Positions 10,396 to 63,149 of a DNA stretch of 64,000 nt are shown here, in pieces. A program made the translations under genes and the position numbers. Within the stretch, counting starts at the first letter, position 1, and each line of letters begins with the position of its first letter. The notes beneath the pieces are model-generated. The model worked only from the letters and a program-made list of their open reading frames with translations, made no database searches and was not told the origin of the DNA. The stretch comes from Minisyncoccota bacterium (GTDB lineage Bacteria > Patescibacteriota > Minisyncoccia > Phycocordibacterales > UBA9973), in NCBI GenBank assembly GCA_041661005.1, contig JBAZVG010000001.1, forward strand, positions 479,515-543,514, written 5' to 3'.

Positions 10396-10410
10396 AAAGA
10401 TATTTAACAA

Positions 10411-10442
10411 AAAAAAAAGACCGGGTTAACCCGGTTTTTTTT
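10411..10442. terminator. bidirectional rho-independent terminator
   Basis: A-run, GC hairpin gaccgggttaacccggt, then T8 run. Confidence 0.6.
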
Positions 10443-10444
10443 GA

Positions 10445-10533
10445 TGCGGACAGAGTGGGATTCGAACCCACGGTTCTTTTAAAGGAACGGCGGTTTAGTA
10501 AACCGCTGGTTTAAACCACTCACCCATCTGTCC
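10445..10533 (-). tRNA. class II tRNA (Ser-like, G73 discriminator, long variable arm); apparent anticodon loop UUACUAA
   Basis: Reverse complement folds with acceptor GGACAGA/TCTGTCC, T-arm GTGGG-TTCGAAT-CCCAC, 18-nt variable arm and anticodon stem GCGGT/ACCGC; anticodon reads ACU, which is unusual. Confidence 0.55.
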
Positions 10534-10636
10534 TTAAGATGTTCCGAGTGTAGCATAAAAAATTAAAAAATACATGGAAAAGTACAGATAATGTGTTAGA
10601 GTAATTACGTAATTAAATATGTAATTAATTACGTAT

Positions 10637-10725
10637 GGAGCCGTGTCAGAGTGGTCTAACGTACCTCTTTGCTAAAGAGGCAGGGGCTTCAAAACCCCTC
10701 GGCGGTTCGAATCCGCCCGGCTCCG
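10637..10725 (+). tRNA. tRNA-Ser(GCU)
   Basis: Acceptor GGAGCCG/CGGCTCC, anticodon stem CCTCT/AGAGG with loop TTGCTAA, long variable arm, T-loop TTCGAAT, G73. Confidence 0.8.
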
Positions 10726-10885
10726 CAAATTTGAACGTAGTGAAAACTGCGGAACGGCCCTAATATACTCAAGTATATTAGGGAGGATTCGAACGGCGAA
10801 ATGTAAAATTTTCAGCAGAAAATTTTATGAGTCGGTGCCCAGACAAATTTTTTGTGACGACAATAAATTTAGTCGAGGGAGAAAT

Positions 10886-10900
10886 TCCGCCCGGCTCCGC
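10886..10900 (+). repeat. direct repeat of the tRNA-Ser 3' end (tccgcccggctccgc), att-like
   Basis: 15-nt exact copy of 10712-10726 lying 160 bp downstream; the interval carries the hairpin ccctaatatac-tcaa-gtatattaggg and the aaaattttcagcagaaaatttt palindrome. Confidence 0.5.
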
Positions 10901-10917
10901 CAAAATATCATTCTTTG

Positions 10918-11280
10918 TTAGACCTTATTTTTCGCCACACGCAGACCTTTTTTAACTATTTTGTTTACATCTTTCCACTCGTCCTTTAATTTGTCAGCAA
11001 AAGATTTTATTTCCTTCTCATGCATTTTGTATTGTTTAGCATAATTCTTTGAAATCACATCCACTGCCTTGTGATACAAAGGAACAGAAACTTCTTTGGC
11101 TTTTTTAACTTCACTCGCTACTTCTTTCTTCATTTTAACCAAAAGCGCTCCCGCTTTCTTCTGATGCACTTTCGCCTTAGGACCAAAAAGATAATACGCT
11201 CCGGCGCTAGCCACACTCGCCGCCACTACCCCCGCCCCAATTGCCATTTTTTTACCTGTAGACATTTTTTTATTTTTCAT
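10918..11280 (-). CDS. hypothetical membrane-anchored Lys-rich protein
   Basis: 120 aa ORF with an N-terminal hydrophobic segment AIGAGVVAASVASAGAYYLF. Confidence 0.4.
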   Translation of the reverse strand: MKNKKMSTGKKMAIGAGVVAASVASAGAYYLFGPKAKVHQKKAGALLVKMKKEVASEVKKAKEVSVPLYHKAVDVISKNYAKQYKMHEKEIKSFADKLKDEWKDVNKIVKKGLRVAKNKV

Positions 11281-11304
11281 AGTATTTGTATTTAACTTTA
11301 TAAT

Positions 11305-11577
11305 TTATTTTAATTTTGATTTTTGTGAAACTTTCTTTTTTTTCTTAAAGAATTTAGTAAGAAATTGAAACAAGCCACTTTCTCTCACCTCTTCCAAAAT
11401 CTCCTTTGTGGTATCTCCAATATTATTTATATCTTCTTCTGCTTTATCCATAATCCTAGAGAAAGTACAACTTACACGAATAAGGTAAAACAAAAGTATA
11501 GCCACCATTATTCCTAAAATGATAAATCCGACCGAAGAGATAAAAAAGAAGACTTGTGATTGTAAAAGCGAGTTCAT
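11305..11577 (-). CDS. small membrane protein
   Basis: Hydrophobic helix FFFISSVGFIILGIMVAILLFYLI; start trimmed to the internal Met to avoid overlap with recG. Confidence 0.3.
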   Translation of the reverse strand: MNSLLQSQVFFFISSVGFIILGIMVAILLFYLIRVSCTFSRIMDKAEEDINNIGDTTKEILEEVRESGLFQFLTKFFKKKKKVSQKSKLK

Positions 11578-11596
11578 GAGTATATTATAGCACAAT

Positions 11597-13936
11597 ATGG
11601 AGCTCCACGACAAACTTGAATTAAAATTCCGTTTAGACATAAACCAAAAGAAAGCCCTGCACCGGTTGAAACTTTTCTCCGTATCGGATTTGCTTTTTCA
11701 CTTCCCTGTTCGATACAGCGATATCAGTGAAGTAAAGAAAATTTCTGAATTAGTCCCGGGTGATATGGCGACAGTCTACGGAAAAGTTTCAAATCTAAAA
11801 ACTAAAAAGGGATTCCGGTCAAAAATTCCTATGGCGGAAGGCACTATTGAAGATCTTTCCGGTAAAATAAAAATTACTTGGTTCAATCAGGCATATCTAG
11901 CCAAAATGATCCACGAAGGCGACACGGTGAAGCTGACTGGCAAAGTAACGGCGAGCAAGAGTGGGACATACTTAGCCAACCCAGAATTTGAAAAGATGCT
12001 GGATATGCCGATCGACTCGCACAACACGCTCTTTCGTCAAAGGGCATCTTTGACAAGCATGTCAAAGATGCCCTTTGACATTGGACTTTCCTATCCCATT
12101 TACGCGGAAACTCGCGGAATAACCAGCAAGTGGTTTTACCACGCAATAGAAAAAATACTGCGAGAAAAGACGTTGGATAATGTTTTAGATTATATTCCCT
12201 CAGATATTTTAAATAGATATCATTTGCCTATGCTCAAAACAGCTCTTGTATGGATTCATAAGCCCAAAAATGCGAAGGACGCGGAATCAGCCCGCAAAAG
12301 ATTCGCATTCGAAGAAGTCTTCTGCATCCAGTTGGAACGTCAGCATGATAAATTTGAATATAGGAAAAATAAATCTTTTCAAGTAAAAACAGATAATAAA
12401 AAAACAGGAGAATTTTTGGAACGCTTTCCTTGGGGGCTGACTAATTCGCAAAAAAAATCCATTGAAACCATACTGGGAGATATGGCAAAATCTTTTCCGA
12501 TGTCGAGACTCCTCGAAGGCGACGTCGGTTCAGGAAAAACCGCCGTCGCGGCCACAGCCGCATATACTGTGGTAAATACTAGACCCTTCGACTTTGCTCA
12601 GGGCAAACTCCAAAGCTTTGGGAGTTTGCAAGTGGCCTACATGGCGCCCACAGAAATTCTAGCGACTCAGCATTTTGAATCTTTTATACAGTATTTTTCA
12701 CCCCGCCCAGAAACGGGCGGGGCAAGCATTCCCATAAATATCGGGCTCATCACCGGAAGCGGTTGCCGAAAATTTCCCTCAAAATTAAATCCTGAAGGAT
12801 TCACCACCATCTCTCGCGCGCAACTTTTGAAATGGGTAGCTAATGGAGAAATACCTATCCTGATCGGCACTCATGCTCTTATTCAAAAAACTGTTAAATT
12901 TAAAAACCTAGCGCTAGTTGTGATTGATGAACAGCACAGATTCGGCACGGCGCAAAGAAGAAAATTGGTCAGAAAGGATACAAAAGGAAACATAAGCGCT
13001 CCACACTTACTTTCGATGACAGCCACCCCCATCCCCCGCACGCTTGCGCTCACTATCTATGGAGATTTGGATTTGTCATTGCTTAATGAAATGCCTCCGG
13101 GAAGAAAACAGGTAATTACAGAAATTATTACGCCAAACAAGCGCGCAGAAACTTATGAAAAAATTCGCTCTGAATTAAAAAATGGTCGGCAACTTTACGT
13201 GATTTGTCCGAGAATTTTTGAGGCGGAAAGCGAAGGAGGAGATGTTCCCGAGCGAACCCTTGGAAGGAGCGACGGCGACGGACAGAGAAAATTTTCAGCA
13301 GAAAATTTTCGTGGTGAGTCCGGGAATATCTCCTCCTTCGCTAAATTGGAAATGAAAGCGGTCACCACTGAGGCTAAAAGACTCAAAAAAGAAATCTTTC
13401 CTGAATATGAAATAGGCATCTTGCACAGTAAGATGAGTAAGGAAAAAAAAGAAGAAGTAATGCAAAAATTCACTGAAAATAAAATAAACATTCTTTGCGC
13501 CACATCCGTGGTAGAAGTCGGAGTAAATGTCCCTAACGCCACCGTCATAATTATAGAAGGCGCAGAACGTTTTGGTTTGGCGCAATTGCATCAGCTTCGC
13601 GGACGTGTGATCCGAAGCACGCATCAAGCTTATTGCTTTATTTTCGCGGAAGCCAAAAGTGCTAAAACGATGGAAAGATTAAAAGCATTAAAAACCGCTA
13701 AAAATGGTTTTGAACTGGCAGAACTAGACCTCACCCTTCGTGGCGCGGGAGAGCTCGGAGGCACCAAACAATGGGGCATCACTGACCTCGGAATGGAAGC
13801 GATTAAAAATATCAGAATGGTAGAAGCCGCTCGCACGGAAGCCATTCGCTTAATCGAAGAAGACCCGGAACTCACTAAATATCCCCTTTTGAAACAAAAA
13901 GTTCACCAAAAAGCGGGTGAATTCCATTTCGAGTAA
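11597..13936 (+). CDS. recG: ATP-dependent DNA helicase RecG (with in-frame insertions)
   Basis: Wedge domain, Walker A GDVGSGKT, DEQHRFG, QMTATPIPRTL and HQLRGRVIR motifs; 779 aa. Confidence 0.8.
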   Translation: MELHDKLELKFRLDINQKKALHRLKLFSVSDLLFHFPVRYSDISEVKKISELVPGDMATVYGKVSNLKTKKGFRSKIPMAEGTIEDLSGKIKITWFNQAYLAKMIHEGDTVKLTGKVTASKSGTYLANPEFEKMLDMPIDSHNTLFRQRASLTSMSKMPFDIGLSYPIYAETRGITSKWFYHAIEKILREKTLDNVLDYIPSDILNRYHLPMLKTALVWIHKPKNAKDAESARKRFAFEEVFCIQLERQHDKFEYRKNKSFQVKTDNKKTGEFLERFPWGLTNSQKKSIETILGDMAKSFPMSRLLEGDVGSGKTAVAATAAYTVVNTRPFDFAQGKLQSFGSLQVAYMAPTEILATQHFESFIQYFSPRPETGGASIPINIGLITGSGCRKFPSKLNPEGFTTISRAQLLKWVANGEIPILIGTHALIQKTVKFKNLALVVIDEQHRFGTAQRRKLVRKDTKGNISAPHLLSMTATPIPRTLALTIYGDLDLSLLNEMPPGRKQVITEIITPNKRAETYEKIRSELKNGRQLYVICPRIFEAESEGGDVPERTLGRSDGDGQRKFSAENFRGESGNISSFAKLEMKAVTTEAKRLKKEIFPEYEIGILHSKMSKEKKEEVMQKFTENKINILCATSVVEVGVNVPNATVIIIEGAERFGLAQLHQLRGRVIRSTHQAYCFIFAEAKSAKTMERLKALKTAKNGFELAELDLTLRGAGELGGTKQWGITDLGMEAIKNIRMVEAARTEAIRLIEEDPELTKYPLLKQKVHQKAGEFHFE

Positions 13937-13947
13937 TTCAAAAGTTG

Positions 13948-14217
13948 TCATTTCACTTCATCCAAGATGATTTTTTCTGCTGCCTCCGGGTCAAATCTAT
14001 AATTATTCTCCAAATTTGTCTTTACTTCATTCGCTCTATCTATCGCATCTTGTCCTTTTTCGATTATATTCTTTCCATCCTTATCGCCAGTAAATAAATC
14101 CGTGCGTATAATAAAAGTGAAAATGATCACCAATCCGATCATAAGCAATAAAAGTCCTATGTATCCGCCGTTTAAGCTATTTTTGTTTTTTATATATACT
14201 ATGTATTCTTTGAACAT
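13948..14217 (-). CDS. small membrane protein
   Basis: 89 aa with one TM segment GGYIGLLLLMIGLVIIFTFII. Confidence 0.35.
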   Translation of the reverse strand: MFKEYIVYIKNKNSLNGGYIGLLLLMIGLVIIFTFIIRTDLFTGDKDGKNIIEKGQDAIDRANEVKTNLENNYRFDPEAAEKIILDEVK

Positions 14218-14446
14218 CTTGTCCTCTTATCTTAACCTTTGCGCGAACCTTTTTCGAGAATCAAATGAAGTAATGCGCACGCTCCGCGTGCATCATTTCT
14301 CGAAAGCAATTACTACGCTCTGATAATGTGGTAACTCAATGAACTCCGCCACGCGCGATTACGCGCGTCTGCCCTCGCCTCGCCACCGTTTCCATGCATA
14401 TATTATTTCGCGGGGGTTTCTTTTGATTTGGTATGGGTGGCGGGCG
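14218..14446. repeat. left terminal inverted repeat of island (GC-rich, about 229 bp)
   Basis: Plus strand here is the near-exact reverse complement of 25925-26152. Confidence 0.75.
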
Positions 14447-14940
14447 AGGTCAGGTTTCTTCAAAGAAGAAACGGCGAAATTCAAAATACAAATTCAAATC
14501 ATTGTCTCGGGCATTATACCATTTTTCTATTTTGGTGGTCACGCAAAGTTTTGAGGTGCACCCTCGGCATTCGCCTCGGGCATTTCCGCTAGGGCTACGA
14601 GTGCCTAGATGCCTATGAGCGGGCAAGCAAAATAACCGAACGGCTCAAATACCAGTAAATGAGCCGTTCACTCGATTGCCCGCAACTTCTTGGGGAGAGG
14701 AAGTTTCCTCTCCCCGGGTCGGGCTACTCTGGGATTACCCAGAGTTCTGCCCTCGCCATCCCCACTCTACGTTTTTCAATATTGTGTTTAGTGTGTAGCT
14801 TTCGCTTTCGAGAATGCATTTCAATTCGGGTCAGGCACTCGTCCTTTAGCCGTGGCCACCCTAGCGGAAATGCCCAAGGCGGAAAATGCAAATGCACTTG
14901 ACCCACCCACCCATTCGCGTGCAAATTTTCGCCGTGAGGA
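14446..14940 (+). ncRNA. GC-rich hairpin-dense noncoding segment (candidate structured RNA or recombination site region)
   Basis: GC far above the window average; nested hairpins gcgggcaa[gaacggctca..tgagccgttc]ttgcccgc, ggggagagg/cctctcccc and ctctggg/cccagag; long-range complement gggcatttccgctaggg (14579) with ccctagcggaaatgccc (14856). Confidence 0.3.
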
Positions 14941-14963
14941 AAAAGGGACGGCGACTCCCTTAT

Positions 14964-15131
14964 TTATAAATCATCTTTCAATTCAATAGCTTCTTCTTCG
15001 TCTAGTCCTTCCGTATCCATAATTTCTTTTACATGTTCAGCTTCATCTTGATCCAGTCCGTGATTTTCCATAAGTTCCACAACTTCTTCGTCAATTTCTT
15101 CTCCATTTTCATTTTTAATTTCTTCATCCAT
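14964..15131 (-). CDS. tiny highly acidic protein (55 aa, MDEEIKNENGEEIDEEVVELMENHGLDQDEAEHVKEIMDTEGLDEEEAIELKDDL)
   Basis: Manual translation of the minus strand; below the ORF-track size cutoff; last gene of the island operon. Confidence 0.25.
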   Translation of the reverse strand: MDEEIKNENGEEIDEEVVELMENHGLDQDEAEHVKEIMDTEGLDEEEAIELKDDL

Positions 15132-15135
15132 TTTT

Positions 15136-15804
15136 TTATATTTCAGAATAAAATACTGAATGCCCAGTTTTTCCGTTCTGTTTTATTTTTCCTTCTTTCT
15201 CTAATTGTGAAAGGTATCTAGTTGCAGTTGCATCAGACACATGCAAAAACTTTTCTACTTCGTCGTTGGTGACTCGTGGTGAGCTTGTCGAACCATTTTT
15301 ATTTTCAAACAAAGACATGACACGATCTAGTTTCTTTCTTTTTCTGAATTGAATCGCATTTCTAGCTGTGATTAGAAGTTCGCGAGCTAGATTAGATTTA
15401 GGTTGCTCACTCACAGGCTTCGCCTGTTCGTTTTGAGAAGTTTCCGGTTCTTTCAACGGCTCATTTACTGGTATTTGAGCCGTTGGAGGTTCAATAGCTT
15501 GGACGGGTTCAAAAACTGACTCAATTGAGGGTTCATTTGTCCCGTTAGAGGTAGGATTTGCTTGCATATCCGTTGGCTCTAATGGGATTGCTTCTTCTGG
15601 TGTAGGGGTAGAATTTGAGGGTGGTATATTAGTACTTTCATCACTAAAACCCTCCCTAGAAGCTTCCGGGGCTTCAGGAAGCACTTCGACAGGCTCGGAA
15701 TCTATGGGTGGAATAGGTGCATCAGCCATAGGCTCTTGGGGGCTTGGTGGAATAGAGTTTTCTTCGGGAATTGGTTTTTGGGTTGTATTTTGTTCGTCGG
15801 ACAT
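15136..15804 (-). CDS. Pro/Glu-rich disordered protein with C-terminal winged-HTH
   Basis: Low-complexity PEPS-rich N-terminal 150 aa; C-terminal VSDATATRYLSQLEKEGKIKQNGKTGHSVFY is wHTH-like. Confidence 0.4.
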   Translation of the reverse strand: MSDEQNTTQKPIPEENSIPPSPQEPMADAPIPPIDSEPVEVLPEAPEASREGFSDESTNIPPSNSTPTPEEAIPLEPTDMQANPTSNGTNEPSIESVFEPVQAIEPPTAQIPVNEPLKEPETSQNEQAKPVSEQPKSNLARELLITARNAIQFRKRKKLDRVMSLFENKNGSTSSPRVTNDEVEKFLHVSDATATRYLSQLEKEGKIKQNGKTGHSVFYSEI

Positions 15805-37412: not shown

Positions 37413-37421
37413 ACAGACTTT

Positions 37422-37456
37422 ATTACGTAATCTATTACGTAATAGATTACGTAATT
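37422..37456. repeat. three tandem TTACGTAA palindromes
   Basis: attacgtaat-ct-attacgtaat-ag-attacgtaat; a related array lies at 10601-10635. Confidence 0.5.
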
Positions 37457-38045
37457 ATTTAAAAGAAATACTTTCTATAACCACAGGGGTCGCAGGTCTG
37501 TCGGCAATACCGGGAAGCAGAGTCGGCACATTTTCAATTTTTGTAACTATATCCATACCGTTCGTCACTCGCCCAAATACTGTATGCTTGTCATCCAGAA
37601 AATTATTTGAAGCTACGTTAATAAAAAACTGGCTTCCATTTGTGTTCGGACCAGAGTTTGCCATCGAGATAGTTCCCGCATCATTTTTATTATTCTTGTT
37701 TACACTACCCAATTCATCGGGGAAACTGTATCCCGGACCTCCGGTACCCCAAAGATTAATCTTGGAATCGTCTTTCGTCAGAGGGTCCCCTCCTTGAATC
37801 ATAAAACCTTTTATCACTCGATGAAATTTAGTTCCATTATAGAAACCGTCTTTGGCTAACTTCACAAAATTAGCAACCGTATTCGGAGCTTGTGAGTCAA
37901 AAAATTCAATTGTAATATCCCCCTGATTTGTGTGCAATGTTGCATTCATGGTATTTTTCTCTTCTTTTGTACTGCTTGTTGCAGAAAACCAGATGCTTCC
38001 GATCACCGCAACAACACCGACTAAAATAATAATGTTCTTTTTCAT
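37455..38045 (-). CDS. ppiB: peptidyl-prolyl cis-trans isomerase, cyclophilin type (membrane-anchored)
   Basis: HTNQGDITIEFF...FHRVIKGFMIQGGDP and NGSQFFI motifs. Confidence 0.75.
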   Translation of the reverse strand: MKKNIIILVGVVAVIGSIWFSATSSTKEEKNTMNATLHTNQGDITIEFFDSQAPNTVANFVKLAKDGFYNGTKFHRVIKGFMIQGGDPLTKDDSKINLWGTGGPGYSFPDELGSVNKNNKNDAGTISMANSGPNTNGSQFFINVASNNFLDDKHTVFGRVTNGMDIVTKIENVPTLLPGIADRPATPVVIESISFK

Positions 38046-41689: not shown

Positions 41690-41793
41690 AATACTAAATA
41701 TTGTTGTTTTAAAAGACTTGGGAGCGCGACGGCGCGAGCACGAGGAATTTTTTAGCAAAAAAATATCCGTGCTTTTAAAACAACAATATTTAG
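41690..41793. repeat. 27-bp perfect inverted repeat enclosing a GC-rich 50-bp core (large hairpin)
   Basis: taatactaaatattgttgttttaaaag ... cttttaaaacaacaatatttagtatta. Confidence 0.6.
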
Positions 41794-45041: not shown

Positions 45042-45053
45042 TCTAAAAAAATA

Positions 45054-45140
45054 AAACATAACTTTTGAAGGGGTTTCGAGGCTGACGAGCCGAGAACTTC
45101 AGGATTTTTTAAACTTCAAAAAATCCGTACCGGAAAAAGC
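45054..45140. mobile_element. MITE-like palindromic element copy 1 (about 90 bp)
   Basis: Core aacttttgaaggggtttcgaggctgacgagccgagaacttcaggattttttaaacttcaaaaaatccgtaccggaaaaag with terminal inverted repeats cataactttt/aaaagctatg. Confidence 0.6.
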
Positions 45141-45156
45141 TATGTTTTATTTTTTT

Positions 45157-45756: not shown

Positions 45757-45780
45757 GCAAAAAAGTATATCACATATTTA

Positions 45781-45897
45781 GACAAAAAAACATAACTTTT
45801 GAAGGGGTTTCGAGGCTGACGAGCCGAGAACTTCAGGATTTTTTAAACTTCAAAAAATCCGTACCGGAAAAAGTTATGTTTTTTGTCTAAATTTAAC
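45781..45897. mobile_element. MITE-like element copy 2 (direct orientation, 19-bp TIR gacaaaaaaacataactttt)
   Basis: Same core as copy 1. Confidence 0.6.
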
Positions 45898-53354: not shown

Positions 53355-53465
53355 AACTTCTTAAAATAAAACTTTTTCCGGTACGGATTTTTTGAAGCTT
53401 AAAAAATCCTGAAATTCTCGGCTCGTCAGCCTCGAAACCCCTTCAAAAGTTTCATTTTAAGAAGT
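53355..53465. mobile_element. MITE-like element copy 3 (inverted orientation)
   Basis: Reverse complement of the 45054-45140 core. Confidence 0.6.
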
Positions 53466-53466
53466 T

Positions 53467-55680: not shown

Positions 55681-55823
55681 AAAAAAAATTTATAAAATTC
55701 GTTGCAGGCGTATGTTTTATGGAACATTGCGCAGGCTGACAAGCCGAGCATAGCAAATTTTCAGCAGAAAATTATGTCGTGTTCCAGAAAATATATGCCA
55801 AGAAAGAATTTTATAAATCATAT

Positions 55824-62613: not shown

Positions 62614-63149
62614 TTATGGATTTTGGTGACAACCGATATTATCATACACGGGATTACCGGGAAGATTAATAAAGGCTTTTCCAAAACTAATGCCACTGCT
62701 TCCCACACAATAAAGCAAACCCTCTGGACCAAACCAACTTTCAGCAGAAAATAAGGAGCTATCCCCTCTAACATGCAGGGCATATCCTTGCGCATTACCG
62801 CTCGAAATTTCTAGAATTTTTTTACATAAAGCATTGGCTTGTGGAATATAAATAGATGCATTTGAATTTAAAGGATACATTTGATCACAAGTTCCTGCAA
62901 AAGCATGAACTGGATTATTAGCCCAATTAATTTGACCATTCAAGCCTGCATAAGACCCTTTATCTGAATACTCTAGTGCCAACAATGTACGAAATTGAGT
63001 CAATTCTTCTTTTAAAGCAGACAGTCTCGTCTTTATTCTCGCCGTATTCAAACTCGCCATTACGATCGAAGACAAAAGGCTGATGATGGCAACCACTACC
63101 AAAAGTTCTATAAGAGTGAAACCTTTTTTGTTGTTTTTAATATATTCAT
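62614..63149 (-). CDS. type IV pilin/pseudopilin-like protein, leader region frameshifted at an A6 tract
   Basis: Mature N-terminus GFTLIELLVVVAIISLLSSIVMASL lies in frame with the ORF; the MNILKTTKK leader ATG at 63149 is in the +1 frame across acaacaaaaaagg. Confidence 0.45.

What the first reader, a model, noticed from the sequence alone, without database searches (positions are those of the whole stretch)
12037..13310. In-frame palindromic insertions inside recG (Rickettsia-RPE-like behaviour)
recG contains at least four short GC-rich or perfectly palindromic segments that keep the frame but add residues absent from canonical RecG. The first is a 19-bp perfect IR with an AGCA loop at 12037-12078. 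The second is gcaaactcc-aaagcttt-gggagtttgc at 12603-12629. The third is ccccgccc-agaaac-gggcgggg at 12701-12722. The fourth is gaaaattttc-AGCA-gaaaattttc at 13287-13310, lying within a roughly 45-aa insertion (EGGDVPERTLGRSDGDGQRKFSAENFRGESGNISSF) before the conserved EIFPEYEIGILHSKM block. The last motif recurs intergenically at 10806, 55754 and 62738, so these look like mobile palindromic elements that colonise coding sequence.
Basis: partly seen in the sequence, partly recalled or inferred. Interest (0 to 1): 0.6.

Follow-up and report, generated by a model that had tools for sequence, protein, structure and literature searches.

The report
Hairpin repeats inserted in-frame in recG
The DNA-repair gene recG of this ultra-small (candidate phyla radiation) bacterium carries several short hairpin-forming insertions that are read through as extra protein loops. 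The largest is a copy of a widespread, apparently undescribed family of fork-tipped hairpin repeats that has also settled in many other housekeeping genes, much as palindromic elements do in Rickettsia.

Summary
The shortest orthologues have 720 aa. Across 80 related genomes each site is an indel hot spot: the short form occurs in 42-68 genomes and unrelated hairpin inserts in the rest.

The sites differ in kind.
- Site 4 (13229-13342, exactly 38 codons) is a 114-nt hairpin. It belongs to a large family with a variable long outer stem and a conserved forked tip: a covarying GC hairpin with a GACG loop, plus the AAATTTTC-AGCA-GAAAATT hairpin.
- Site 3 belongs to a smaller dispersed family.
- Site 1 is an inverted duplication of a small hairpin unit.
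- Site 2 is no better than chance, and its motif was found nowhere outside recG.

The site-4 family has seven copies in this window and at least 120 metagenome hits. In-frame copies sit in Fmt, KsgA, MetK, UvrD, TsaD, Tgt, GlmM-like and XerC-like genes. Two window copies are cleanly absent from a close relative.

The claimed copy at 62738 is only a 12-nt match.

The behaviour is RPE-like, but there is no homology to RPEs. No Rfam family, transposase or target duplication was found. The verdict is a new variant of a known kind; the mobilisation mechanism is unknown.

The parts
11597..13936 (+). recG ORF (779 aa), host of the insertions. The helicase motifs are intact: GDVGSGKT, VIDEQHRFG, MTATPIPRT, QLHQLRGRVIRS and the TRG-like RGAGELGGTKQWG.
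   Evidence: motifs read from the translation
12036..12079 (+). Site 1. Perfect 20-bp inverted repeat with AGCA loop (codons R147-I162, net +8 aa). It is made of two inverted copies of a small hairpin unit, GTCAAAG-N5-CTTTGAC.
   Evidence: (z = -8.1). L028 has one unit only. L011 has a full palindrome with two compensated differences. A single unit lies intergenically in L077.
12587..12629 (+). Site 2. The 6-aa lineage-variable insertion FDFAQGKL (12587-12610) plus the imperfect palindrome 12603-12629, whose right arm is the native FGSLQ codons.
   Evidence: z = -1.3; motif found only at this recG site in 1.44 Mb
12698..12727 (+). Site 3. GC-only hairpin CCCCGCCC-AGAAAC-GGGCGGGG (12701-12722), encoding SPRPETGGAS (net +8 aa).
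   Evidence: (z = -4.7). The same hairpin type lies at a second recG site in L026 and L065 and in another gene in L025; one search shows it in UvrD of L193.
13229..13342 (+). Site 4. A 114-nt fork-tipped hairpin element of exactly 38 codons (S545-A582), with a 22-bp outer stem 13229-13250 / 13321-13342.
13250..13322 (+). Conserved core of the site 4 element: junction, degenerate GACG hairpin and AGCA hairpin (tip at 13287-13310).
   Evidence: model R1, 60.2 bits, E = 1e-16
10777..10838 (+). Family member lacking the GACG hairpin, just downstream of tRNA-Ser(GCT).
   Evidence: 33 bits
41689..41798 (+). Intergenic family member. Its tip hairpin is UUUUUU-AGCA-AAAAAA and its outer stem is about 24 bp.
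   Evidence: 58 bits; z = -9.7
45046..45155 (+). Intergenic family member (subfamily with GGATTTTTT-AAACTTC-AAAAAATCC tip), between convergent L20 and LDcluster4 genes.
45778..45890 (+). Intergenic family member with the same core as 45046-45155 but a different outer stem.
53355..53466 (-). Intergenic family member with the same core and a third outer stem. It is absent from the close relative L205.
55690..55816 (+). Intergenic family member (best match to the model), inserted between the amino-acid-kinase-family gene (PF00696) and map. It is absent from relatives L205-L207 in the alignment, and L208 has only a 2-nt spacer at the site.
   Evidence: (72 bits)

Best explanation
recG in this Paceibacterota (Nomurabacteria-like) genome has accumulated in-frame, stop-free, hairpin-forming DNA insertions at four permissive loops. 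They have different origins.

Site 4 is a complete copy of a dispersed, non-autonomous repeat. The repeat is a long hairpin. Its outer stem differs from copy to copy, and its tip is a conserved fork made of a short GC hairpin with a GACG loop and an AGCA-looped hairpin. New copies arise, or are lost, as whole hairpins. Most lie at gene ends. Those that land in genes persist only if they keep the frame, contain no stop and sit in a tolerant loop. They are then translated as about 35-40 extra residues.

The constraint acts on the nucleic-acid structure, not on the peptide. Site 3 is a smaller member of another dispersed hairpin family. Site 1 is a small hairpin unit that was duplicated in inverted orientation in place. 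Site 2 is an older lineage-variable 6-aa insertion whose palindrome comes from local quasi-palindrome sharpening.

Shown: presence/absence, dispersal, in-frame status, structural covariation. Inferred: translation, neutrality, and the way copies are made (probably a DNA-level process acting on the folded single strand, with template switching keeping the arms complementary).
For: Indel hot spots. Length census over 80 sequences (the window plus 79 of the 80 fetched loci; L080 was dropped for a frameshift):
- Site 1: baseline of 16 aa in 42 genomes.
- Site 2: 15 aa in 37.
- Site 3: 10 aa in 68.
- Site 4: 20 aa in 59.
The rest carry unrelated inserts. These fold with z mostly from -3 to -8 and have GC of 0.5-0.6, against 0.27-0.44 for the baseline. 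L028 has two different elements in tandem at site 4. Insert states are mosaic on the core tree.

Family of site 4.
- At least 120 metagenome stretches share the 19-mer, and most share the full architecture.
- The GACG hairpin covaries: GC:28 / CG:21 and GC:31 / CG:26.
- The tip stem covaries outside the ascertained set, at 41707 (UUUUUU/AAAAAA) and in the type B recG inserts (CTCGGCT-AGCA-AGCCGAG).
- Model R1 finds 7 copies in the window and 22 in 1.37 Mb of relatives.

Coding copies.
- They occur in Fmt, KsgA, MetK, UvrD, TsaD, an XerC-like gene, Tgt, a PGM/PMM gene and recG.
- They are read in at least 4 frame/orientation combinations.
- Orthologous recG copies differ by compensated pairs. 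WIN against L074: 16 stem positions, of which 8 changed on both sides and 0 are broken.

Gain or loss.
- 55690-55816 and 53355-53466 are absent from L205, whose Map is 95% identical in protein and 87.6% in DNA, and whose flanks align closely.
- 45046-45155 and 45778-45890 are absent from the homologous spacers of L201-L204.
- The PGM/PMM insert in L055 is absent from L062, L072 and L051.

Loop positions. All four sites fall at gaps in the alignment to solved RecG 1GM5. In the low-confidence model they lie between regular secondary-structure elements.

Other families in both coding and spacer positions: PARNAFSIADAGG and SA(K/R)GGSASGG, and SPR..GGAS.
Against: - No transposase or other mobilising gene was found in the neighbourhoods of 120 copies.
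- No clear target-site duplication appears at two clean empty sites.
- The terminal arms are not conserved between copies, which is unlike ordinary transposable elements.
- Three copies in this one genome have near-identical cores but unrelated outer stems. Simple copy-and-paste does not explain this.
- Strong conservation of the tip across contigs of GC 0.29-0.58, the covariation, and the position of six window copies at gene 3' ends would also fit a functional RNA or DNA structure rather than purely selfish DNA.
- Translation of the inserts is inferred only from frame and stop-codon conservation.
- Site 2 shows no dispersal at all.
- The metagenome set was ascertained on an exact 19-mer, so the invariance of the tip is partly by construction.
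Confidence: 0.75

Rival explanations
1. The palindromes are made in place, not brought in. Replication template switching (quasi-palindrome correction, fold-back copying) at flexible loops creates and perfects inverted repeats from local sequence.
For: - Site 2: WIN, L026 and L068/L071/L053 each have a palindrome whose right arm is their own native NLQ(V/T)A / FGSLQ codons, and the centres differ.
- Site 1: L028 has one hairpin unit where WIN and L011 have two in inverted order. WIN and L011 differ at two positions, both mirrored on the other arm.
- Outer stems stay complementary while changing.
Against: - The same 70-nt core occurs in many unrelated genes and spacers and in many genomes.
- Empty sites show that whole hairpins with no similarity to the flanks are gained or lost.
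- The L055 insert arms are absent from orthologues.
This rival can hold for sites 1 and 2, and for maintenance of the arms, but not for the origin of sites 3 and 4.
Confidence: 0.3
2. The fork-tipped hairpin is a functional structured element, not selfish DNA. It could be a bidirectional terminator or RNA-processing signal, or a protein-binding DNA cruciform. The recG copy would regulate recG expression.
For: - Conserved GACG and AGCA loops and junction with a covarying stem.
- Six of seven window copies lie at gene 3' ends, with A-rich 5' and T-rich 3' arms.
- L202 has an ordinary terminator hairpin at the position of copy 45046-45155.
- Compensatory change persists even inside coding sequence.
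Against: - Orientation relative to genes is only biased, 35 of 53 opposite, and both orientations occur inside ORFs.
- Close relatives do without the copies. One copy sits between two genes that overlap in L205, which is not a place for a terminator.
- No Rfam family matches.
- The peptide frames used are heterogeneous.
Confidence: 0.2
3. The inserted peptides are adaptive protein modules, new surface loops selected for RecG function or partner binding.
For: - The subtype peptide ERTLGRSDGDGQRKFSAENFRGES is conserved in several host proteins.
- The inserts sit in loops of intact enzymes.
Against: - The same DNA is read in at least 4 frames and orientations, giving unrelated peptides.
- Unrelated insert families occupy the same site in orthologues, and 59 of 80 genomes have none.
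- Arm codons change freely as long as pairing is kept.
- There are no protein-family hits.
Confidence: 0.05
4. The inserts are removed before the protein is made (intron-like or intein-like), or they are assembly artefacts of metagenome bins.
For: Hairpins can cause assembly errors. L080 has a frameshifted recG. The phosphoglucosamine-mutase-like gene is split at the insertion site in L072 and L051.
Against: - 79 of 80 independent assemblies keep recG in one frame through inserts of many lengths, all multiples of three and stop-free.
- The same inserts recur in independent samples and assemblers.
- The inserts are too short for inteins and have no intron signatures or Rfam intron hits.
Confidence: 0.03

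Closest known systems
Rickettsia palindromic elements (RPE-1 to RPE-10; Ogata et al. 2000, as summarised in PMC10969869)
   Same: - Palindromic repeats of about 100-150 bp, in several families.
- Dispersed in a small genome.
- Often inserted in frame in unrelated housekeeping genes and read through as extra peptide segments compatible with the fold.
   Different: - No sequence relationship: the insert peptides hit no NCBIfam model.
- The host is a Paceibacterota (CPR) bacterium, not Rickettsia.
- Here the tip is conserved and the stems are copy-specific.
- The tip is a fork with covarying hairpins.
- Several reading frames and both orientations are used.
- Most copies sit at gene 3' ends.
MITEs and REPINs (REP doublets forming hairpins, mobilised by RAYT transposases)
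   Same: Short, non-autonomous, hairpin-forming, multi-copy repeats, mostly extragenic, with presence/absence variation between relatives.
   Different: - Terminal inverted repeats are not conserved between copies.
- No target-site duplication is seen at two empty sites.
- There is no GTAG/CGTC tag at the ends.
- No RAYT or IS partner was found near 120 copies.
- Intragenic in-frame copies are frequent.
Coding palindromes and hairpin elements of organelle genomes (Nematomorpha mitochondrial genes, PMC6649704; sponge repetitive hairpin-forming elements, PMC2800124)
   Same: Long inverted repeats embedded in protein-coding genes, with both arms translated; hairpin elements invade repeatedly.
   Different: Those are organellar, not bacterial. 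From the abstract of PMC6649704, they are perfect inverted repeats up to 284 bp long, with both arms encoding protein. Here a conserved forked core is shared by copies in many genomes.
Quasi-palindrome template-switch mutagenesis (Ripley model; my own knowledge, not checked in the library)
   Same: It explains how an imperfect inverted repeat is made perfect and how a change on one arm is copied to the other. That fits sites 1 and 2 and the compensated outer stems.
   Different: It is a local mutational mechanism. It does not explain the dispersal of the same 70-nt core to many loci.

Membership tests
Rickettsia palindromic elements (RPE) | Palindromic repeat of roughly 100-150 bp present in many copies in the genome | tested here: met
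   Site 4 element is 114 nt. There are 7 family copies in 64 kb.
Rickettsia palindromic elements (RPE) | In-frame insertion in unrelated protein-coding genes, read through as a peptide | tested here: met
   In-frame, stop-free copies occur in recG, Fmt, KsgA, MetK, UvrD, TsaD, Tgt, a PGM/PMM gene and an XerC-like gene. Translation itself was not tested.
Rickettsia palindromic elements (RPE) | Sequence homology to an RPE family (conserved RPE peptide or DNA) | tested here: not met
   The insert peptides give no hit in NCBIfam at E up to 10. No RPE family appears among the Pfam matches with E up to 0.01 for the whole RecG.
Rickettsia palindromic elements (RPE) | Insertion at protein surface loops compatible with the fold | tested here: inconclusive
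   All four sites are gaps against solved RecG 1GM5. In the model they lie between secondary-structure elements, but the model is poor (pLDDT 46).
MITE | Terminal inverted repeats conserved between copies | tested here: not met
   Outer arms differ completely between copies with near-identical cores. There are 61 distinct 10-nt arms among 67 copies.
MITE | Target-site duplication flanking the element | tested here: inconclusive
   Two clean empty-site comparisons show none beyond a possible ATGAT or 4-nt match.
MITE | Related autonomous insertion sequence that supplies the transposase | tested here: inconclusive
   No recurrent transposase-like ORF was found in the neighbourhoods of 120 copies. 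The rest of the 813-kb genome was not available.
REP / REPIN with RAYT | 20-40 nt imperfect palindrome with a conserved GTAG or CGTC tag at one end, in inverted doublets, with a RAYT gene in the genome | tested here: not met
   There is no end tag. GACG (the complement of CGTC) is a loop inside the element, not an end. Presence of RAYT is not testable from 64 kb.
Any Rfam 15 RNA family | Match to a curated covariance model | tested here: not met
   Only tRNAs reach the gathering threshold in the window. Nothing relevant appears at E up to 1 in 10400-15200 or in 12 loci holding copies.
RecG helicase (host gene) | Wedge domain, two RecA-like helicase domains with motifs I-VI, and the C-terminal TRG region | tested here: met
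   Pfam domains; NCBIfam RecG models at E = 9e-213, although the score is just under the curated cut-off; PDB 1GM5 at E = 3e-116.

The most novel reading that the evidence does not exclude
The fork-tipped hairpins are a new class of structured mobile element of CPR and related bacteria.
- The conserved GACG/AGCA fork would be the handle recognised by an unknown hairpin-specific machinery, or would be a self-acting nucleic-acid structure.
- The long stem would be rebuilt or rewritten at each copying event by fold-back synthesis. That would explain locus-specific but perfectly paired arms around identical cores.
- The elements would double as gene-end hairpins, and they seed new protein loops in essential enzymes of genomes that are otherwise extremely streamlined.
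Probability: 0.3. Interest if true: 0.8.

Novelty: new variant of a known kind. Interest (0 to 1): 0.62.

Why it matters
- It would extend 'selfish DNA inside protein-coding genes', best known from Rickettsia, to the candidate phyla radiation. Those genomes of about 0.8 Mb are usually described as streamlined.
- It gives a natural map of sites in core enzymes (RecG, UvrD, MetK, KsgA, TsaD, Tgt) that tolerate 10-70 extra residues.
- It affects practice. These inserts create indel hot spots in marker genes, lower equivalog scores (RecG falls just under NCBIfam cut-offs), and may disturb assembly.
- The conserved forked tip, with covariation and copy-specific stems, is not in Rfam. It poses a concrete mechanistic puzzle about how hairpin DNA is copied and kept paired.

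Tried and rejected
- **tmRNA reading of the intergenic copies.** Prompted by a sub-threshold Rfam tmRNA hit at 10637-10728 and GGGC..GACGG-like starts. Rejected: ARAGORN finds no tmRNA in eight loci, the supposed 5' end is the 3' end of tRNA-Ile, and no plausible tag frame exists.
- **Outer stems as inverted copies of the native flank (inverted target duplication).** Rejected: neither arm is present in insert-free orthologues of the L055 gene or at the empty sites in L205.
- **Core inserted into the loop of a pre-existing terminator hairpin.** Support is weak and low-complexity only: L202 AAAACAAAAC.. and L203 AGATAAA/TTTGTCT. It is contradicted by copies 53355-53466 and 55690-55816.
- **Known ribozymes or ncRNAs.** By eye I saw no hammerhead, twister-type, SRP or RNase P signature, and Rfam gave no relevant match.
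- **Phage vector.** Four IMG/VR hits to the 19-mer lack the rest of the motif.
- **Structure prediction of RecG from 28 close homologues.** The model was poor (pLDDT 46), so no fold search was run.
- **Literature.** There was no hit for the core sequence or peptides. None of the 25 top-ranked papers in a combined search for CPR terms with MITE or REP terms held a MITE or REP term, and two other CPR searches found nothing relevant. Subscription journals are not covered.
- **Ungapped test of outer-arm pairing.** It gave only 7.5 of 10 within a locus against 4.6 across loci, because of bulges. The per-sequence folds are more informative.
Full report
**The locus.** The window is AT-rich (GC 0.29-0.43). 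Positions 11597-13936 (+) encode a 779-aa RecG.
- It has wedge, DEAD, Helicase_C and RecG_dom3_C domains.
- It matches T. maritima RecG 1GM5 at E = 3e-116.
- The identical protein is on record from a 'Candidatus Paceibacterota' MAG contig of 813,355 bp.
- Its closest database relatives, 73-84% identical by BLASTP, range from 720 to 816 aa. That spread already points to indels.

**Checking the observation.** All four inverted repeats are at the stated places.
- Site 1: 12036-12079, 20-nt perfect arms, AGCA loop.
- Site 2: 12603-12629, 12-nt arms with one mismatch.
- Site 3: 12701-12722, 8-nt arms, all G/C.
- Site 4: 13287-13310, GAAAATTTTC-AGCA-GAAAATTTTC.

Strong hairpins are enriched in the window: 12 against 0-4 in ten shuffles. 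The segments around sites 1 and 3 fold far better than shuffles (z = -8.1 and -4.7), but site 2 does not (z = -1.3).

The small site 4 palindrome is only the tip of a 114-nt hairpin, 13229-13342, with a 22-bp outer stem. The 136-nt stretch containing it folds with z = -6.05. The element begins on a codon boundary and spans exactly 38 codons, S545-A582.

The 18-mer AATTTTCAGCAGAAAATT is exact at 10807, 13290 and 55756, against 0.35 expected. The claimed copy at 62738 is only a 12-position match (13 bits, E = 0.07).

**Are they insertions?** I fetched 80 recG loci from species-representative genomes, all Nomurabacteria/Paceibacterota-type MAGs, 70-81% identical over the best tblastn segment. After dropping L080, which is frameshifted, I aligned 79 of them with the window sequence.

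| Site | Baseline length | Genomes with baseline | Extra in the rest | Net gain in this genome |
|---|---|---|---|---|
| 1 | 16 aa | 42 | up to +22 | +8 |
| 2 | 15 aa | 37 | +4 to +13 | +6 |
| 3 | 10 aa | 68 | +4 to +13 | +8 |
| 4 | 20 aa | 59 | +10 to +71 | +33 |

A non-palindromic +4 (TKGNIS) makes up the rest of the 59-residue excess over the 720-aa form.

- The inserted DNA folds well (z mostly -3 to -8) and is G+C-rich: 0.5-0.6, against 0.27-0.44 for the baseline segments.
- Site 4 hosts at least six unrelated hairpin families in different species. L028 carries two in tandem.
- On a tree of the conserved columns the insert states are mosaic.
- All four sites coincide with gaps in the alignment to solved RecG. 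Site 4 falls exactly between the two aligned blocks, at 1GM5 residue 592, after the first strand of the second RecA-like domain.
- The structure model was poor (pLDDT 46). Even so, it places each insert between regular secondary-structure elements.
- The helicase motifs are intact (translation).

**Site 4 belongs to a large structured family.** Blast of the inserts against all loci found copies outside recG. Most hits share one architecture:
- a long outer stem of about 15-25 bp whose sequence is specific to each locus;
- a junction (cATTGCGCAG, CTTACGGAG or CCCTTGGnAGG);
- a 4-5-bp GC hairpin, usually with a GACG loop;
- GAGCAGAGC or GGACAGAG;
- the AGCA-looped hairpin;
- ATGCGTG or TTCGTGGTG;
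- the returning arm of the outer stem.

The GC hairpin covaries: GC:28 / CG:21 and GC:31 / CG:26 at two pairs. Invariance of the tip is partly due to how I ascertained the set. However, the tip stem does covary in copies found by the model: 41707, UUUUUU-AGCA-AAAAAA. It also covaries in the 'type B' recG inserts of L001, L058, L029 and L004. Those have the same layout with CTCGGCT-AGCA-AGCCGAG and a GGGC-GACG-GCCC hairpin.

A covariance model (R1) scores the recG element at 60 bits (E = 1e-16). In the window it finds 7 copies: 10777, 13250, 41707, 45063, 45797, 53375(-) and 55717. It also finds 22 hits in 1.37 Mb of related loci. No Rfam family matches.

**Coding copies elsewhere.** In-frame, stop-free copies sit in Fmt, KsgA/RsmA, MetK, UvrD, TsaD, an XerC-like recombinase, Tgt, a PGM/PMM (GlmM-like) gene, and recG of other lineages.
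- They are read in at least four frame/orientation combinations, for example ..GQRKFSAENFRGES....SDSPRKFSAENFLCPSPSLLPRVRS....NFQQK.. and ..IFSRK... The peptide is therefore not what is conserved.
- Orthologous recG copies (WIN, L074, L137) keep a 70-nt inner part of identical length. Their outer stems differ by compensated pairs. WIN against L074: 16 positions, 6 the same, 2 changed on one side, 8 changed on both sides, none broken.
- Other hairpin families behave alike. PARNAFSIADAGG occurs in recG of L052, the GlmM-like gene of L072, a gene of L062, and spacers. SA(K/R)GGSASGG occurs in recG and other genes.

**Gain and loss.** The closest relative available is L205, whose Map is 95% identical in protein and 87.6% in DNA.
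- L205 lacks copy 55690-55816. There the PF00696 amino-acid-kinase-family gene and map overlap, and L206-L208 have 2-19-nt spacers.
- L205 also lacks copy 53355-53466, and the flanking sequence on both sides aligns closely.
- In both cases the whole hairpin, outer stem included, is the indel, and no convincing target duplication is seen.
- Copies 45046-45155 and 45778-45890 are absent from the homologous spacers of L201-L204.
- The L055 insert is absent from three orthologues.

**The other three sites.**
- Site 3. The CCCCGCC..GGCGGGG hairpin (peptide SPR..GGAS) occurs at recG site 3 in about nine species. It also occurs at a second recG site (L026, L065), in another gene of L025, and in UvrD of L193. 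It is a small dispersed family.
- Site 1. This is a hot spot for several families. The version in this genome is two inverted copies of a small unit, GTCAAAG-N5-CTTTGAC. L028 has a single unit, and L077 has one in a spacer. L011 has a full palindrome that differs from WIN at two positions, both mirrored on the other arm. This points to inverted duplication in place.
- Site 2. The FDFAQGK motif was found only at this recG site (13 sequences in 1.44 Mb). In WIN, L026 and L068/L071/L053 the palindrome uses each genome's own native downstream codons as the right arm. It is a local quasi-palindrome, not an imported element.

**What remains unexplained.**
- Three window copies share a near-identical 75-nt core but have unrelated, perfectly paired outer stems. 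Yet empty sites show that the stems arrive with the element.
- No mobilising gene recurs near 120 copies. IMG/VR holds only chance 19-mer matches.
- The motif strand is the C-rich strand in 37 of 53 loci (p = 0.005) and opposite to most genes in 35 of 53 (p = 0.03). This is a bias compatible with a single-strand DNA process, but it is not decisive.
- Six of the seven window copies lie at gene 3' ends, so a secondary role as gene-end hairpins cannot be excluded.

**Comparison with known systems.** The behaviour matches Rickettsia RPEs as described in PMC10969869: several families of about 100-150-bp palindromic repeats, often in frame in unrelated metabolic genes.
- Membership fails on homology, and the architecture is different (conserved tip, variable arms).
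- MITE and REPIN criteria are not met: conserved terminal repeats, target duplication, an end tag, and a partner transposase.
- I found no paper describing such elements in CPR bacteria in the searchable library. That library does not cover subscription journals.

**Verdict.** The RPE-like interpretation is right in spirit for site 4 and, more weakly, for sites 3 and 1. It is wrong for site 2. The finding is a new variant of a known kind, with an interesting and apparently undescribed repeat family behind it.

Noticed in passing
window 10637-10903: tRNA-Ser(GCT) at 10637-10726 is followed by about 160 nt. That segment holds a family member without the GACG hairpin (10777-10838) and ends in a 16-nt copy of the tRNA 3' end plus CCA (10888-10903), like a miniature integrated element. 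The same arrangement (GGATTCGAACGnCGGA .. AGCA hairpin .. GGTGCCCAGAC .. GACG hairpin .. AGTCG) occurs in metagenome loci L088, L093, L127, L158, L194 and L197. In L093 and L127 it lies just downstream of a long (83-86-nt) tRNA.
   Followed up: partly
window 14220-15135: About 900 nt without a long ORF, relatively G+C-rich, with long-range inverted repeats (14572-14594 / 14859-14881, 96% complementary) and several hairpins. There is no Rfam hit. The 23-mer GTGGTAACTCAATGAACTCCGCC is shared with L004, L052 and L068.
   Followed up: partly
window 14638-14669 and 15454-15485: A 32-nt hairpin (GAACGGCTCAAATACCAGTAAATGAGCCGTTC) occurs twice in opposite orientation. One copy is non-coding. The other is in frame (..PTAQIPVNEPL..) in the low-complexity ORF 15136-15804. 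It is another small palindrome found in both coding and non-coding DNA.
   Followed up: no
window 10446-10533 (-): ARAGORN calls a tRNA-Ser with anticodon ACT, which is unusual. The same call, paired with tRNA-Ser(GCT), recurs near recG in L076, L070, L055 and L034, and alone in L019.
   Followed up: no
L072 11841-12046 and L051 12144-12350: The phosphoglucosamine-mutase-like gene is split into two overlapping ORFs (..YYEHS* / MNIPNFTKEH..) exactly at the interdomain linker where L055 carries the fork-tipped element. This is either a real gene split or a frameshift.
   Followed up: partly
window 10606-10635 and 37417-37460: AT-rich palindromes built on TTACGTAA (TACGTAATTAA..TTAATTACGTA; ATTACGTAATCTATTACGTAATAGATTACGTAAT) lie in two spacers. 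They may be a protein-binding site.
   Followed up: no
L178 1622-4796: A UvrD/PcrA homologue of 1058 codons seems to carry a large insertion after the DEYQD/VGD motif region (..VGDTDQCLTRGTKIKMADD..), which looks intein-like. UvrD was also the most frequent neighbour or host of family copies (12 loci).
   Followed up: no
window 12977-12997 (recG aa 461-467): A fifth, non-palindromic indel in recG: TKGNIS against N-IA in most orthologues, shared with P0057 and P0101.
   Followed up: no
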